This document shows, in pieces, positions 6,834-13,972 of a stretch of 40,638 bases of DNA. Origin of the DNA: Myxococcaceae bacterium. Its GTDB lineage: Bacteria > Myxococcota > Myxococcia > Myxococcales > Myxococcaceae. Under the pieces are notes generated by a model, which was not told the origin of the DNA, did not search any database, and saw nothing but the letters and a program-made list of their open reading frames with translations. The position numbers were made by a program, and so were the translations under genes. The stretch spans positions 1 through 40,638 of the forward strand of contig JADGHL010000037.1 in the NCBI GenBank assembly GCA_019686135.1. Direction: 5' to 3'. Every line of letters starts with the position of its first letter. The first letter of the stretch is position 1.

Positions 6834-8972
6834 TCACTGCGGAATCCACAGCCCCGCGCTCTGCGCCGGCAACGGCAGGGTCAGCATCCCTTCGTGGATG
6901 GTGGCGCTGCGGCCGCTCACCACGTCCGTCAGCACCAGCCCGTCGGCACCCTTGAGCCGCCCGCGCAAGGCCACGGTGCGGGCCTGTTCGCCGCCGCGGT
7001 GGATCGTCACCACCGCGCCATCGTCGCTTGCCGCGTCGTCCCGCTCGAGGATCAGCGTGTCCGCCTCTGCCACCAGCGTGTAGCGCGCGCCGAAGCGCAG
7101 CCCACGGTTGTGCCGCCGCGCCTGCCCCACCTTCTTCACGTGCTCCAGCAGTTGGGCCTCGGGCGCGCTCAACGCCGCGCCGAAGCGCATCATCCGCCGG
7201 TTGTCCGGATCGCCCGCGCCGGGCAGGCCGATCTCGTCGCCGTAATACAGCAGCGGCACGCCGGGCAGCGTGAGCGCAAACGTGAGCGCGTCCCGCGCGC
7301 GGGCGAACGCGCCATCGTCGGTGACACTTCCGGGAGGCCGGTTCGCGCTCCACGCCTGCGCGCCGGCGTCCCCGTCGATCTGGTTGGCCGCGATGGAGAT
7401 GAACCGCGGCACGTCGTGGTTGCCGATGAAGGGGGAGTTCAGCGTCACCGGCGGATAGGCCGCGTCGTTCGCCTCCAACGCGTCGGCGATCGCCGTCAGG
7501 GGACCGCCCTTCGCGAACGCGTCGATGATCGACCAGTACAGCGGGAAGTCGAACTGCCCATCCAGCTCGTTGGGTCCCAGGTACTGAGCGATCTGCGCCC
7601 GCCCGTCGGTGCCGGTGAACGTCTCGCCGACGAGGTACCAGGCGATCCCGGTCCGTTGGCTGATCTCGTGCAGCCGCCCGGCGATGGTTCGGCCGGCGAC
7701 GTGATCGACGTGCTTGACCGCGTCCAGCCGGAAGCCGTCCAGGTCCGCCGCTTCGATCCACCACAGCGCGTCTTCGGCGAGCTGCTCGCTGGCCTGGGCG
7801 TTGCGCCAGTTGAGGTCCGGCAGATACGGCGTGAACCAGCAGTCCAGCCGCCGCGCCTCCCAGTCGCACTGGCTCTCGCCGCACACGCAGCTGTTGCCGG
7901 TGTTGAACCACCCGTCCAGCCGGTGCGCTGCGAAGTACTCGTGCTCTTCATGGACGTGGTTGATGACCAGATCGGTGATCACCCGGATCCCGTGCGCGTG
8001 CGCCGCGCGCGTGAGCGCCCGGAGGTCCTCCAGCGTTCCGAAGCGCCGCTGCGGCTCGCGCGCCTTCGAGGGCCAGTACCCGTGATAGCCGGTGTACAGG
8101 TGGCCGCCGGTGCCCGGGAACGCGCCGTCCGGGTTCGCCTGCACCGGCGAAATCCAGATCGCCCGCACGCCGAGGTCGTCGAAGTAGCCCTCGTCGATCT
8201 TCTGGGTGATTCCGGCCCAGTCGCCGCCCTCGTAGTTCGCCTGCGGATCGACGTCGGGCACCGGAGCGTCGTTGGACGGATCGCCGTTGGCGAAGCGGTC
8301 CGTGAACGCGAAGTAGAGGATCGCCTCCTGCCAGTCGAACCGCTCGGCCTCCACCCAGAACGGGAGGTACAGCGGCCGGGCGGAGCGCCCCTCCCCGTCC
8401 TGCGCGGCGATCGTCAGCGTGTGCTTGCCTTCGGGAAGGCCTTCGAGGTGCAGCTCGAAGCGCCCGTGCGCGTCCGGAAAAAGGTCGCCACGCACCTGCC
8501 CGTCGAGGGTGACCGTGCTCCAACCGGCCTCTGGCGTCGCCCGCCGGTTCCCGTCGACGTACTGCGCGACCAGCCGCACCTCGCCTAGCGCCGGCTGGGT
8601 GAAGGACTCGAGCCTCAGCTCCGGAACGCTGCAGTCGACGACGCGCAGGAGCGAGTACTCCTCGTTGCCGACCCAGCGGCGATACGGGTTCGCCTCGTCC
8701 AGCACCCGCCCCCCGCCGACCTCCAGCGCATACGCGTAGTCGCGGGGCTCCAGCGTGGCGGTGAAGACGAAGGCGCCGTCCTGTTGCCGCACCATCGGGT
8801 CGCCGGAGAAGCCGTTCCATTCGCCCCGGATGAGCACGCCGTCCCCCGGCAGCGAAGCCGGGGGGACGAAGCGGACGGTGATCGAGCAGTCCCGCACCGG
8901 ATACGGGTACTCCGCCGGCGCCGGGCAGCCCGCGGCGCAGGCGGCGAAGACGAACAGCAGTGCGGGCCGCAT
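6834..8972 (-). CDS. Glycoside hydrolase family 13 (alpha-amylase family) lipoprotein with an N-terminal beta-sandwich domain
   Basis: GH13 conserved regions are present: DLVINHV (region I), GFRLDAVKHV (region II), YLVGETF (region III), FIGNHDVPR (region IV). The lipoprotein signal is MRPALLFVFAACAAGC. Start is placed at the internal ATG 8972. Confidence 0.8.
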   Translation of the reverse strand: MRPALLFVFAACAAGCPAPAEYPYPVRDCSITVRFVPPASLPGDGVLIRGEWNGFSGDPMVRQQDGAFVFTATLEPRDYAYALEVGGGRVLDEANPYRRWVGNEEYSLLRVVDCSVPELRLESFTQPALGEVRLVAQYVDGNRRATPEAGWSTVTLDGQVRGDLFPDAHGRFELHLEGLPEGKHTLTIAAQDGEGRSARPLYLPFWVEAERFDWQEAILYFAFTDRFANGDPSNDAPVPDVDPQANYEGGDWAGITQKIDEGYFDDLGVRAIWISPVQANPDGAFPGTGGHLYTGYHGYWPSKAREPQRRFGTLEDLRALTRAAHAHGIRVITDLVINHVHEEHEYFAAHRLDGWFNTGNSCVCGESQCDWEARRLDCWFTPYLPDLNWRNAQASEQLAEDALWWIEAADLDGFRLDAVKHVDHVAGRTIAGRLHEISQRTGIAWYLVGETFTGTDGRAQIAQYLGPNELDGQFDFPLYWSIIDAFAKGGPLTAIADALEANDAAYPPVTLNSPFIGNHDVPRFISIAANQIDGDAGAQAWSANRPPGSVTDDGAFARARDALTFALTLPGVPLLYYGDEIGLPGAGDPDNRRMMRFGAALSAPEAQLLEHVKKVGQARRHNRGLRFGARYTLVAEADTLILERDDAASDDGAVVTIHRGGEQARTVALRGRLKGADGLVLTDVVSGRSATIHEGMLTLPLPAQSAGLWIPQ

Positions 8973-8982
8973 CCGCCTCCGC

Positions 8983-11900
8983 CTACAGGCAGGCAACGTT
9001 GTAGACGGTGCAGCCCGTCCGCGACCCGGCTGCCGTGCTCGACGAGTAGCAGCCCCACGTGGTCCCCGAGACATTGGACTTCGTCGGGTCGTAGCCGCTG
9101 TTGGACGAGTTCACGAATCCGAACTGCTGGCCGAGGGTCGTGGGGATGGTCACCGTGTTGCCGTGCCACGAGTTGGTCCCGCAGCAGCTCGACCACGCGG
9201 CGTTCGAGACACCCACCAGGCACTGCCCAGCGAAGGCCGGCGAGAAGTTGATGAAATAGGAGATGGAGAAGTTGCAGGAGTTGGTCGCCCCGAGCGAGGC
9301 GATGGTGGAGGTGCCGTTCGAAGCGTGGCTCACCAGCTTGCGGCCGATCGCCGCGCACGAACTCTCCGCCACTGCCTGGGTGCAGTTGCCGCTGGTCCCG
9401 TTGCCGCAGGGCACGAACATCACCGGCAGCTGGTTCCCGGCGACGTCGAAGACGAACCCGGTGTTCGTGTTGCAGGTCACCTGGATGTTCGTCACCGGCC
9501 CGTTGTTGACGGTCCCCGAACCGTTCGTGACGTAGCAGACCAGGCCGGACGGCTGGGTCTGGACGGTTACCTGGTAGGTCGATCCGTTGGGCACCGGCGT
9601 CGGGAAGGTGAACGCACCGTTGCTGGAGATCGGCAGGGTCTCGCCGTTGTTGTTCTGGAGCACGAGGCCCGGTCCGGTCAGCCCGGTCACGGTGCCGCCG
9701 ATCGGATAGGGCGTGTTCACGCAGAAGACGGGAATCGTCTGGTCGCCGAGGCCCATGATCCCCGTCGGCGAGCTGACCGTGCACACCTGATCCGGCGACG
9801 TGGGCTGCGTGAGCACGGTCACGTTGTACGTGCTCCCGCTGGGGACCATGGTGGGGAAGGTGTAGATGCCGTCGGCCGGGATCGCGAGGTTGTCCCCGCC
9901 GTTGTTCTGCAGGACCAGACCGGTGCCGGTCAGCCCGCTCACCGACACCTTCAGATTGAAGGGCTGCGCCGTGCAGTTGACCTCCACCGAGGTGACGTTC
10001 GCCCCCGCCATGGTGCCCGAGCCGTTGGTGATGCCGCAGAACTGCGTGGGCGAGGTCGGGTGCGTCTTCACAGTCACGAGGTACGGCGATCCGCTGGGGA
10101 CAGGCTGCGGGAAGGCGAAGGTGCCGTTGCCGGAGATCGGCAGGTCGTCCCCGCCGTTGTTCTGCAGCACGAGCCCGCTACCGGAGAGGCCCACCACCGT
10201 GCCGCCCACCGTGTACTGATTGATGGTGCAGTTCACGGTGATGCTCTTCACGTTGGTCGCGCCCACCGTCCCGGTGCCCCCGCTCACCGTGCACTGCTGC
10301 CACGGATTGGTGGGCTGGGTCTTCACCGTGACCGAATAGGTTTGCCCGCTCGCAAGACGCGTGGGGAAGGTGAACGGCTGGCTCCCGGTGCCGACCACGG
10401 TCACGTCATCCCCGAGGTTGTTCTGCAGCACCAGCCCGGAGCCCGCCAGGCCCACCACCATCCCGCCCACCGTATAGGTGTTGGTGACGCAGGTGACCTG
10501 GACGTCGGTGACGTTGGCGTTGGTGACCGTGCCGAAGCCGTTGGTCACGGTGCACGTCTGCGACGGGGAGATCGGCTGGGTGAGGACGGTCACCCAGTAG
10601 TTGCTGCCGCTATCGACCTGCGCGCTGAAGGAGAAGCTGCCGTTCGCGTTGAGGGTGAGGTTGTTCCCGCCGTTGTTCTGCAGCACCACCGTCCCGGCGA
10701 GGCCGCTGATGGTCCCACCCACCGAGTACTTGTTGGTCGTGCAGGACACCAGAACGCTGGTGACGTTTCCGGAGCCCACCGTCCCCGCCCCGTTCGTCAC
10801 CACGCAGGTCTGCGACGGCGCGAAGGGCTGAGTGGCCACGGTCACGCTGTAGGGCTGGCCGCTGATGATCGGCGTCGGGAAGGTGAAACCGCCGTTGGCG
10901 CTGATCGGCAGATCGTCCCCACCGTTGTTGCGCAGGACCATGCCGCTGCCCACCAGCCCGGTCACGGTCCCGCCCACGGTGTAGGTCGGCGCGGTACAGC
11001 TGACCGTGACGTTGGTCACGTCCGCGCCGCCCACGACACCGGTCCCTGACGCCACCGCGCAGATCTGCGCGGGGCTGGTGGGCTGGACAGCGACCACCAC
11101 CTCATACGGCGTCCCGCTCAACAGCGGCGTGGGGAACGCGAAGCTGCCGTTGGCGTTGATCGGAAGCGGCGCGCCGCCGTTGAGCGCGAGCATGAGGCCG
11201 GAGCCCTGCAGCCCGGTGACGGTTCCGCCAATCGTGTAGCTGTTGGTCGAGCAGTTCACCGCGACGGAGGTCACGTCCCCGCCCTGCACGGTCCCAGTGC
11301 CGCCGGTCACGGTGCAGGTCTGCGAAGGGTTGGTGGGGTTCGCGCTCACGGTCACCGCGAAGGTGCCGCCGCTCGGAACCGGGGTGGCGAAGGTGAACAC
11401 GCCGTTCCCGGTGATGGTGAGGTCGTCCCCACCGTTGTTCTGGAGCACCAGCCCCGATCCCTGAAGCCCGCTGACGGTCCCGCCCACGCGGAACGTGTTG
11501 GTGACGCAGGTCACCTGCACGTCGGTGACGCCCGAGCTCCCCATGATGCCGCTGCCGTTCGTGACGGTGCAGGTCTGTGACGGCGCGCTCGGCTGCGTCA
11601 GGACGGTCACGCTGTAAGGCTGCCCGCTGGGGACCTTCTTGCTGAAAGTGAATGGGCCGTCCGCGGTGATGGGCAGGTTGTCGCCGAGGTTGTTCTGCAG
11701 CACGAGGCCGCTGCCGAGCAGCCCGGTGACGGTGCCGCCCACCGGCAGCCCGTTGGTCTCGCAGGTCACCACCACCGAGGTGACGTTCCCGTTGGCCACC
11801 GTCCCTTCGCCGTTGGACACGGTGCAGGTCTGCGCGGGGCCGACCGGCTGCGACTTCACGGTCACCGAGAACGCATCGCCGCTCCGGACCGGCGTGGGGA

Positions 11901-12609
11901 AGGCGAACGCGCCGTTGGCGTTGATGGCGATGGCGTCGGCGTGGTTGTTCTCGAGCACCAGCCCCGTGCCGGCGAGCCCGCTCACCGTCCCGCCCACGAC
12001 GAAGGAAAGCGTGCTGCAGTTGACCGAGACCGTATTCACCTCCCCCGCAACGACGGTCCCCGAGCCGCCGATCACTTCGCAGGTCTGGCTGGGCGATGTG
12101 GGCTGCTCGAGCACGGTCACGGTGAACGCGTCACCGGGCTTCACCTCGACGGGGAACTCGAAGGGACCGTTCTGGGTCACCTCGAGATCGTTGGCGCCGT
12201 TGAGCTGAAGGACGAGGCCGGATCCCTCCAGGCCCATCACCGTGCCGCCCACGTGCAAAGCGTCGGTGGTGCACGCGACGGAAATGTCGGTCACGTCCGC
12301 CGAGACCACCGTGGTCGGCTGCGTCACCACGCAGGTCTGCGCGGGCGAGGTCGGCTGCTCTTTGACGGTCACGGCGATCGACGCGTTCTTCGCCACCTTC
12401 GTGGCGAACGTGAACGGGCCATCCGCGGTCACCGCGAGATCGCTCCCGCCGTTGAGCTGGAGGATCAGCCCCTGTCCCTGCAGCCCGGTGACCGTCCCTC
12501 CGACGGAGAACTCCGGGTTCTCCTCCGGCGGCGGAGGGGTGCAGGACGAACAGGCTGCGAAACCGAAAACGAGCGACGCAGCGATCGCGGGCAGGAATCG
12601 ACGGAACAT
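8983..12609 (-). CDS. Large (1208 aa) lipoprotein with 12 tandem ~85-aa Ig-like (two-Cys) repeats and a Cys-rich C-terminal domain
   Basis: The lipoprotein signal is MFRRFLPAIAASLVFGFAAC. The repeat consensus is GGTVTGLxGSGLVLQNNGGDDLxIxxNGxFTFPTxVxSGxxYxVTVxTQPTSPSQTCTVTNGSGTxxxxNVTxVxVxCxT, occurring 12 times. A ~160-aa C-terminal domain carries about 14 Cys. A strong GGAGG RBS precedes the gene. The plus-strand ORFs across it are Arg/Gly/His-rich antisense artefacts. Confidence 0.75.
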   Translation of the reverse strand: MFRRFLPAIAASLVFGFAACSSCTPPPPEENPEFSVGGTVTGLQGQGLILQLNGGSDLAVTADGPFTFATKVAKNASIAVTVKEQPTSPAQTCVVTQPTTVVSADVTDISVACTTDALHVGGTVMGLEGSGLVLQLNGANDLEVTQNGPFEFPVEVKPGDAFTVTVLEQPTSPSQTCEVIGGSGTVVAGEVNTVSVNCSTLSFVVGGTVSGLAGTGLVLENNHADAIAINANGAFAFPTPVRSGDAFSVTVKSQPVGPAQTCTVSNGEGTVANGNVTSVVVTCETNGLPVGGTVTGLLGSGLVLQNNLGDNLPITADGPFTFSKKVPSGQPYSVTVLTQPSAPSQTCTVTNGSGIMGSSGVTDVQVTCVTNTFRVGGTVSGLQGSGLVLQNNGGDDLTITGNGVFTFATPVPSGGTFAVTVSANPTNPSQTCTVTGGTGTVQGGDVTSVAVNCSTNSYTIGGTVTGLQGSGLMLALNGGAPLPINANGSFAFPTPLLSGTPYEVVVAVQPTSPAQICAVASGTGVVGGADVTNVTVSCTAPTYTVGGTVTGLVGSGMVLRNNGGDDLPISANGGFTFPTPIISGQPYSVTVATQPFAPSQTCVVTNGAGTVGSGNVTSVLVSCTTNKYSVGGTISGLAGTVVLQNNGGNNLTLNANGSFSFSAQVDSGSNYWVTVLTQPISPSQTCTVTNGFGTVTNANVTDVQVTCVTNTYTVGGMVVGLAGSGLVLQNNLGDDVTVVGTGSQPFTFPTRLASGQTYSVTVKTQPTNPWQQCTVSGGTGTVGATNVKSITVNCTINQYTVGGTVVGLSGSGLVLQNNGGDDLPISGNGTFAFPQPVPSGSPYLVTVKTHPTSPTQFCGITNGSGTMAGANVTSVEVNCTAQPFNLKVSVSGLTGTGLVLQNNGGDNLAIPADGIYTFPTMVPSGSTYNVTVLTQPTSPDQVCTVSSPTGIMGLGDQTIPVFCVNTPYPIGGTVTGLTGPGLVLQNNNGETLPISSNGAFTFPTPVPNGSTYQVTVQTQPSGLVCYVTNGSGTVNNGPVTNIQVTCNTNTGFVFDVAGNQLPVMFVPCGNGTSGNCTQAVAESSCAAIGRKLVSHASNGTSTIASLGATNSCNFSISYFINFSPAFAGQCLVGVSNAAWSSCCGTNSWHGNTVTIPTTLGQQFGFVNSSNSGYDPTKSNVSGTTWGCYSSSTAAGSRTGCTVYNVACL
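9460..12500 (-). repeat. Tandem ~255-bp coding repeats (12 copies) inside the large lipoprotein gene
   Basis: The protein-level periodicity of ~85 aa implies DNA tandem repeats of ~255 bp. Conserved nucleotide stretches support this, including gttgttctgcagcac, ccggtcac and ggtgccgcccac. Boundaries are approximate. Confidence 0.6.
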
Positions 12610-12679
12610 GGGGGAGCCTCCGGAGGTCACCCGCCTGTGGGGCGGACGGGCACCTTAGACCACCGAGCCCCGCGTTCAT

Positions 12680-13972
12680 TCAAGGGCGAGCCACACTCTC
12701 CGGACTTCCGGTCGATGCGGGACCACGACTGCGATCGTCCTGCACGATCCTCACCGGGTAGGCGGCGCCGTGACGGTCGAGGTGACGCTCCACGAGCTCG
12801 AGGCCCATCCGCTGTGGCCCCCGGTCGTCCGGCGCGCGCACGTCGATCGCCTGCCCCTTCCGGTGGACCACCACGCGACGGCCGAAGTCCGCGGCGAGCT
12901 CCCACCATCGCGCCGACCCGCCCTGCTCTGCGCCGCCGGCGCGGCGGGGCGACGTCAGGTGGATCTCCTCCCAGGGGCCGGTCTGCTCGAGGAACGCCTC
13001 CAGCCGGTCGAGGTCGTCGTCGCCATCGCCCTTCAGCCAGAACGGCACCGCGCCCGCGCGCAGCACCTGTCGCGGGTGCACATCGACGAAGGAGCCGACC
13101 GCCAGCGGCCGTTGGCCCAATCCCGCCTCCTGGTACCACTGCGCGTACAGCGCGGCGACCAGCGGGGAGAGATCGTCCGGTTCGTCGAAGAGGATCCGCG
13201 CCAGCTTGAAACCGTGCTCGCGCGCGAACGCATCGAGGTCATCCCGCAAGCCCGGGTCGAAGCCCCACAGTGCCTCTGGCGCCAGCTCGGCGGGTCCGGG
13301 CGGCCGCCATTCGCCGAGCAGGTCCGCGCGGTCGCTCCCCTCGTCGTCCGGGTCGCCCTGAGACTGCTCTCCGAGCGCGCCGAGCTGGAAGAGGTGCCGT
13401 GGGCCCACGCGGATCATCGGCCACGCGCGGCGGCACTCGATCACGAAGATGGTCCCGCCCGGCGCGAGCGCCTCCCGCAGGAACGCCGCGTACGCCTCGC
13501 CCAGGCGGATCCGGTTGAGGTGGAAGGACACGGCGCGCGTGCGCTCCCCTTCCGCCGGATCGTGCACCTGGTACAGGCGCCACTCCGGGTTCGGTTCCAG
13601 AACGCAGCGCCCCCACTCCGCTCCGAACGCGATGGCGTCCTTCGGGGTGCCCGGGCGCGCAGCGACGGGCAGAAGCACTGTCTGCGGAAGCCACGGAATC
13701 CGGAGCGCCGCGCACAGGTGCACGAGCGCGCCGGACGCCGAGCCGATCGCCACCGCGCGATGGCGCCCGGGCGGGTACAGCCCGGCCGACCACCGGGCGA
13801 TCGCCTCGGCGCGCACCCGCCGCAGCGCTCGCGGCGCAACGCGCTTGGGCGCTCGGCGCGCCTGCACCCAGGGCGGCGGAGGGAGCCGCGCCGGTTCCGT
13901 CCATGCGTGCGCGGTGGCGCGGAGGAAAGCGGTGGACACGTCCACGTCACACAGAAGGCGCCGCACCCTCAT
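12680..13972 (-). CDS. Hypothetical protein (~430 aa), divergent from glgE
   Basis: The composition is protein-like, with many Trp, Phe and Asp (GTIFVIECRRAWPMIRVGPRHLFQLGALGE, WLKGDGDDDLDRLEAFLEQTGPWEE). The overlapping plus-strand ORF shares codon boundaries but is Arg-rich and garbage-like. The start is uncertain, with candidates at 13972 (MRVRRLL) and 14134. Confidence 0.45.
   Translation of the reverse strand: MRVRRLLCDVDVSTAFLRATAHAWTEPARLPPPPWVQARRAPKRVAPRALRRVRAEAIARWSAGLYPPGRHRAVAIGSASGALVHLCAALRIPWLPQTVLLPVAARPGTPKDAIAFGAEWGRCVLEPNPEWRLYQVHDPAEGERTRAVSFHLNRIRLGEAYAAFLREALAPGGTIFVIECRRAWPMIRVGPRHLFQLGALGEQSQGDPDDEGSDRADLLGEWRPPGPAELAPEALWGFDPGLRDDLDAFAREHGFKLARILFDEPDDLSPLVAALYAQWYQEAGLGQRPLAVGSFVDVHPRQVLRAGAVPFWLKGDGDDDLDRLEAFLEQTGPWEEIHLTSPRRAGGAEQGGSARWWELAADFGRRVVVHRKGQAIDVRAPDDRGPQRMGLELVERHLDRHGAAYPVRIVQDDRSRGPASTGSPESVARP

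What the first reader, a model, noticed from the sequence alone, without database searches (positions are those of the whole stretch)
8983..12609. Lipoprotein built from 12 near-identical ~85-aa two-cysteine beta-sandwich repeats plus a Cys-rich C-terminal domain, immediately upstream of a secreted GH13 amylase
Each repeat (consensus GGTVTGLxGSGLVLQNNGGDDLxIxxNGxFTFPTxVxSGxxYxVTVxTQPTSPSQTCTVTNGSGTV..NVTxVxVxCxT) has a conserved Cys pair about 25 residues apart, consistent with an Ig-like disulfide. The 12 copies are similar enough that the DNA is a ~3-kb tandem array of ~255-bp units. Such an array is a potential substrate for recombinational expansion or contraction, giving length variation of a surface protein. 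The C-terminal ~160 aa contain about 14 Cys and many Asn/Ser/Thr, suggesting a distinct lectin- or adhesin-like head. The gene is co-oriented with and only 10 nt upstream of a GH13 alpha-amylase-family lipoprotein, and it is adjacent to the GlgE alpha-glucan operon. That placement suggests an extracellular glucan-binding or glucan-presenting stalk protein.
Basis: seen in the sequence. Interest (0 to 1): 0.6.

Follow-up and report, generated by a model that had tools for sequence, protein, structure and literature searches.

The report
Lipid-anchored stalk adhesin with lectin-like head
This myxobacterial gene encodes a probable surface lipoprotein made of twelve diverged CnaB-like beta-sandwich spacer domains carrying a rare, disulfide-rich, distantly C-type-lectin-like head; it is an uncharacterised adhesin-type protein, and its position next to an amylase gene looks accidental.

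Summary
The gene is real: minus strand, 8983-12609, 1208 aa, locus IRZ16_10145 of a Myxococcaceae MAG. It has a lipobox, 12 contiguous 84-87-aa repeats with two Cys each, and a 154-aa Cys-rich C-terminal domain. A GH13 gene starts 10 nt downstream.

The repeats are only 53% identical as protein and 62% as DNA, TRF finds no array, and the longest exact repeat is 21 nt. The head has 10 Cys, not 14. The Cys pair is 20-21 residues apart, not 25.

The stalk repeat occurs in thousands of proteins with interchangeable heads. The head family has only 69 clusters among 1.84 billion representatives, always C-terminal, on many stalk types.

The glucan link fails its own test. None of 80 orthologous GH13 loci has this gene, and none of 6 other head-bearing loci has a GH13.

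Best reading: a surface stalk adhesin with unknown ligand. Recombinational length variation is unlikely.

The parts
12617..12621 (-). Shine-Dalgarno-like GGAGG, 7 nt upstream of the ATG
   Evidence: Upstream sequence read (…CCTCCGGAGGCTCCCCCATG).
12550..12609 (-). Signal peptide with lipobox (MFRRFLPAIAASLVFGFAA|C). Cys20 is the predicted lipidated residue and +2 is Ser.
   Evidence: Matches the pattern [^DERK]6-[LIVMFWSTAG]2-[LIVMFYSTAGCQ]-[AGS]-C at aa 10-20. Homologues with the same architecture also carry lipoboxes.
12502..12549 (-). Short Pro-rich linker (SSCTPPPPEENPEFSV) between the lipid anchor and the first repeat
   Evidence: Translation.
9448..12501 (-). Stalk of 12 contiguous CnaB/transthyretin-like beta-sandwich repeats of 84-87 aa with no linkers. 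Repeat boundaries, R1 to R12: 12250-12501, 11995-12249, 11740-11994, 11485-11739, 11230-11484, 10975-11229, 10720-10974, 10468-10719, 10207-10467, 9952-10206, 9700-9951, 9448-9699. Each repeat has an invariant Cys pair 20-21 residues apart.
8986..9447 (-). C-terminal head domain, 154 aa with 10 Cys. It belongs to a rare sequence family with a distant C-type-lectin-like core.
8983..8985 (-). Stop codon TAG, followed by a 10-nt spacer (8973-8982) containing GGAGG before the GH13 ATG
   Evidence: Sequence read.
6834..8972 (-). Downstream neighbour, not part of the adhesin: a GH13 alpha-amylase-family enzyme with all four conserved GH13 regions. It is probably co-transcribed with the adhesin gene.
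   Evidence: Pfam PF00128 E 2.5e-50. Motifs DLVINH, GFRLDAVKH, VGE and GNHD are present. GH13-X196-PHP synteny is conserved in Myxococcota without the adhesin.
12680..13972 (-). Upstream neighbour IRZ16_10150, a 430-aa hypothetical protein with no evident connection to the adhesin. Together with the adhesin gene it fills a lineage-specific gap between the GlgE operon and the GH13 gene.
   Evidence: The GC3 frame signal supports coding. Homologues are 36-48% identical and scattered in Actinobacteria, Rhodospirillaceae and Chloroflexota. It is absent from all 80 GH13 loci.

Best explanation
IRZ16_10145 is most likely an outer-membrane lipoprotein displayed on the cell surface as a rod-shaped adhesin or receptor.

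Proposed mechanism:
- Cys20 is lipidated and anchors the protein.
- Twelve directly abutting, disulfide-stapled CnaB/transthyretin-like beta-sandwich domains form a passive, fairly rigid spacer. It would be tens of nanometres long (inferred from typical 3-4 nm domain lengths).
- The spacer projects a C-terminal, five-disulfide head with a distantly C-type-lectin-like core. The head is the ligand-binding part.
- The ligand is unknown. It is probably a glycan or surface protein of prey, substratum or neighbouring cells.
- The canonical Ca2+/sugar motifs of C-type lectins are absent, so any sugar binding would be non-canonical.
- The gene is a stand-alone module that landed between the GlgE operon and a conserved GH13 gene in this lineage. 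Its link to alpha-glucan metabolism is positional, not functional.

Shown: gene, lipobox, repeat anatomy, folds, head/stalk modularity, lack of conserved neighbours.
Inferred: surface exposure, rod geometry, disulfides, binding function.
For: Anatomy:
- Anatomy and lipobox are established.
- +2 Ser is not the Lys inner-membrane retention signal reported for Myxococcus (my own knowledge).

Stalk:
- The stalk fold has a confident model.
- More than 5320 homologous proteins exist.
- In them the same repeat array carries other terminal domains, including bona fide SUEL galactose/rhamnose lectin domains (P0041: PF02140, E 4.5e-19), beta-propellers and FG-GAP.

Head:
- The model is confident.
- Bd2740 is a Ca-free C-type-lectin-fold tip of a predator's prey-recognition fibre (PMC10769870).
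- The head family is always C-terminal and sits on at least eight different stalk types: MopE-like, Stig1-like, EGF, Big_2/7/13, PKD, REJ, and this repeat.
- With this repeat it occurs with 2, 4, 7, 10 or 12 copies, always behind a lipobox.

Precedents in Myxococcus for lipid-anchored surface adhesins or receptors:
- CglB (PMC9946355).
- TraA, with a lectin-like head, a Cys-rich stalk and a lipid tag (PMC3325183).
Against: - Surface exposure is not demonstrated. Most outer-membrane lipoproteins face the periplasm.
- No EPN/QPD/WND sugar-binding motifs are present.
- No ligand can be deduced.
- The tight 10-nt coupling to the GH13 gene in this genome could still reflect a locally acquired functional link.
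Confidence: 0.6

Rival explanations
1. One reading: the protein is an extracellular alpha-glucan-binding or glucan-presenting stalk that works with the downstream GH13 amylase and the GlgE pathway.
For: - The two genes are co-oriented with a 10-nt gap. There is no room for a terminator or promoter, so co-transcription is likely.
- The GH13 has all catalytic motifs and a signal-like N-terminus.
- The head has a lectin-like fold.
- Related stalks carry true lectin domains.
Against: - 0 of 80 orthologous GH13 loci in Myxococcota genomes encode the stalk or head within 10 kb. GH13-X196-PHP synteny is nevertheless conserved, and in the closest locus (L003, 61% identity) GlgE lies 170 bp from the GH13 gene.
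- 0 of 5 other stalk+head loci, and 0 of 1 stand-alone head locus, have a GH13 or glucan gene. Their neighbours are all different from one another.
- There is no CBM or starch-binding family match for repeat or head.
- The GlgE pathway is cytoplasmic (established knowledge).
Confidence: 0.12
2. A length-variable (phase- or size-variable) surface protein whose repeat array expands and contracts by homologous recombination or slippage.
For: - The 255-bp period is preserved in frame.
- Across lineages, head-bearing homologues have 2-12 repeats and other homologues have 2-21.
Against: - DNA identity between copies is 55-72%.
- TRF detects no array.
- The longest exact repeat is 21 nt, below the length generally needed for efficient RecA-dependent exchange (established knowledge).
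- Within-protein repeat identity (53%) is no higher than between-protein identity (about 50-60%), so there is no sign of recent duplication or concerted evolution.
- 60 of 123 scored homologues have exactly 12 repeats. That sample is biased by the 12-repeat query.
Confidence: 0.04
3. A periplasm-facing or matrix/structural lipoprotein, for example an envelope spacer or an extracellular-matrix component, rather than a ligand-specific adhesin.
For: - The default topology of outer-membrane lipoproteins is periplasmic (noted in PMC9946355).
- No ligand or partner was identified.
- The head is well conserved (50-67% identity, 23 invariant columns) rather than hypervariable as in TraA.
Against: - A 12-domain rigid array capped by a distal globular head, and the shuffling of that head onto many stalk types, is the design of receptors and adhesins.
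- The estimated length of the array exceeds the usual periplasmic width (inference).
Confidence: 0.15
4. The array is an assembly artefact: repeats were collapsed or mis-joined in a short-read MAG.
For: - The window is a MAG contig.
- The exact protein is on record from one contig only.
Against: - All 12 copies are distinct, with no exact repeat longer than 21 nt, so k-mer assemblers have no reason to collapse them.
- The reading frame and the GC3 signal are continuous.
- Independent assemblies from other samples give the same architecture: lipobox, 12 repeats, head (P0018, P0025).
Confidence: 0.03

Closest known systems
CnaB-type stalk domains of Gram-positive pilins and MSCRAMM adhesins (S. 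aureus Cna B-repeats, B. anthracis TIE, S. oralis PitA, SpaA, SdrD B); transthyretin-like/prealbumin fold
   Different: - There is no Pfam Cna_B match, only a weak summed DUF4369 signal.
- There is no conserved Lys for an isopeptide bond. An invariant Cys pair is present instead.
- The organism is Gram-negative, and the anchor is an N-terminal lipid rather than LPXTG/sortase.
Invasin/intimin (inverse autotransporter adhesins)
   Different: There is no beta-barrel or LysM anchor; a lipobox is used instead. The stalk domains are CnaB-like, not Big_1. The head has five putative disulfides, is about 40 residues longer, and has no sequence similarity.
Bdellovibrio bacteriovorus MAT fibre Bd2740 (PDB 8OKS)
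   Different: MAT fibres are trimeric, meandering fibres, and some carry S74 chaperone domains. The protein here is a monomer-type string of beta-sandwich domains on a lipid anchor. Sequence identity is 17% over 82 residues.
Myxococcus xanthus TraA (outer-membrane-exchange receptor) and CglB (gliding adhesin)
   Same: Both are myxobacterial, lipid-anchored surface proteins. TraA has a lectin-like head (PA14), a rigid Cys-rich stalk and a lipid tag (PMC3325183). CglB is an outer-membrane lipoprotein adhesin that reaches the surface (PMC9946355). Other members of this head family sit on Cys-rich Stig1/EGF/MopE-like stalks reminiscent of TraA's.
   Different: The polarity is reversed: anchor at the N-terminus, head at the C-terminus. 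There is no PA14, VWA or MYXO-CTERM match. The head is conserved rather than hypervariable.
Pfam DUF4369 (PF14289)
   Same: It is the only curated family that registers on the repeats (summed 46 bits for the whole protein; 64 bits for P0018).
   Different: No single repeat reaches significance on its own (0 stretches; single repeats give no hit even at E 10). DUF4369 is described from single N-terminal domains of Bacteroidota thioredoxin-like lipoproteins (my own knowledge), not from long tandem arrays.

Membership tests
Bacterial lipoprotein (SPase II substrate) | N-terminal signal peptide with a positively charged n-region, a hydrophobic core, and a lipobox ending in Cys within the first ~35 residues | tested here: met
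   AASLVFGFAAC matches the PROSITE-type pattern at aa 10-20, and R3 and R4 lie in the n-region. Lipidation itself cannot be tested with these tools.
CnaB / transthyretin-like beta-sandwich repeats | Prealbumin-like beta-sandwich fold superposable on Cna B-repeats | tested here: met
CnaB / transthyretin-like beta-sandwich repeats | Sequence match to Pfam Cna_B or another curated clan member above the gathering threshold for a single domain | tested here: not met
   Only DUF4369 registers, with 46 bits summed and 0 individual stretches. Single repeats give no family even at E 10.
CnaB / transthyretin-like beta-sandwich repeats | Intramolecular Lys-Asn/Asp isopeptide bond (present in many pilin CnaB domains) | tested here: not met
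   There is no invariant or near-invariant Lys among the repeat columns. Lys makes up 1.2% of the stalk. An invariant Cys pair is present instead.
C-type lectin-like domain (CTLD) superfamily | CTLD fold (alpha1, beta core, C-terminal beta5 pairing with beta1) | tested here: inconclusive
C-type lectin-like domain (CTLD) superfamily | Sequence match to Lectin_C or related profiles, or to any solved CTLD | tested here: not met
   There are no Pfam hits at E 10. The profile search against PDB sequences returns only chance hits.
C-type lectin-like domain (CTLD) superfamily | Ca2+/carbohydrate motifs EPN or QPD plus WND | tested here: not met
   None of these tripeptides occurs in the 154-aa head (sequence). 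Bd2740 and intimin also lack them.
C-type lectin-like domain (CTLD) superfamily | Canonical disulfides C1-C4 (alpha1 to beta5) and C2-C3 | tested here: inconclusive
   The positions are compatible. C31 lies in the only helix and C153 in the last strand. C133 and C146 are spaced 13 residues apart, with 7 more to C153, similar to mannose-binding protein (from memory).
Starch/glycogen-binding CBMs (CBM20/21/25/26/41/48 and others) | Profile match of the repeat or the head to a CBM family | tested here: not met
Inverse autotransporter adhesins (invasin/intimin) | N-terminal beta-barrel translocator (with or without LysM) followed by Big_1 repeats | tested here: not met
   There is no such Pfam domain, and the N-terminus is a 20-aa lipoprotein signal followed directly by the repeats.
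MYXO-CTERM / TraA-type surface proteins | C-terminal MYXO-CTERM sorting tag (TIGR03901) and, for TraA, a PA14 domain | tested here: not met
   NCBIfam returns 0 families for the whole protein. The protein ends in the globular head (…YNVACL), with no transmembrane or Arg-rich tail.
Diversity-generating-retroelement (DGR) variable proteins with CTLD fold | A template repeat matching the 3' end of the target gene, plus a nearby reverse transcriptase | tested here: not met
   No second copy of any part of 8986-9447 exists in the 40.6-kb contig. The C-terminal residues of the head are the most conserved, not variable.
Functional operon with GH13 (glucan utilisation locus) | Conserved co-occurrence of adhesin and GH13 genes across genomes | tested here: not met
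   0 of 80 GH13 loci contain the adhesin. 0 of 6 head-bearing loci contain a GH13.

The most novel reading that the evidence does not exclude
The 154-aa head defines a previously unrecognised, myxobacteria-restricted family of recognition domains. [quoted passage not shown] Predatory and social Myxococcota would mount it on interchangeable stalks (CnaB-like arrays, EGF, Stig1-like, MopE-like, Big, PKD) to recognise prey or kin surfaces. That would make it functionally parallel to Bdellovibrio MAT fibre tips or the TraA PA14 head.
Probability: 0.25. Interest if true: 0.6.

Novelty: new variant of a known kind. Interest (0 to 1): 0.35.

Why it matters
If the reading is right, this protein illustrates two unannotated building blocks of myxobacterial cell surfaces.

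- The first is a very abundant disulfide-stapled CnaB-like stalk repeat, found in thousands of proteins, with only a faint DUF4369 signal in Pfam.
- The second is a rare lectin-like head that is shuffled among stalks.

Such modules are candidates for prey, substratum or kin recognition in predatory bacteria, where receptors are mostly unknown.

The practical results for annotation are narrower:
- The gene should not be annotated as glucan-related because of its neighbour.
- The repeat array should not be flagged as recombinationally unstable.

Tried and rejected
- Tandem Repeats Finder on the window found no array in the gene.
- Pfam and NCBIfam on the whole protein, single repeats and the head gave only a weak DUF4369 signal.
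- PDB sequence searches with the protein and with the head profile found nothing real.
- Foldseek against PDB for the head found nothing significant.
- The afdb50 library was unavailable.
- I looked for position-by-position orthology of the 12 repeats with 7 homologues, to date the array. Only a faint diagonal for R3-R5 and R10-R11 appeared in two SUEL-lectin proteins, which is not informative.
- I considered a DGR target, because CTLD folds are typical DGR targets. No template repeat exists in the contig.
- I considered a MYXO-CTERM tag or another sorting tag. There is none.
- I asked whether the upstream 430-aa gene is an accessory factor. It is a patchily distributed hypothetical protein, absent from other adhesin loci.
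- I looked for a conserved partner gene around six head-bearing loci. There is none.
- I could not read model coordinates, so Cys-Cys distances and rod length remain inferred.
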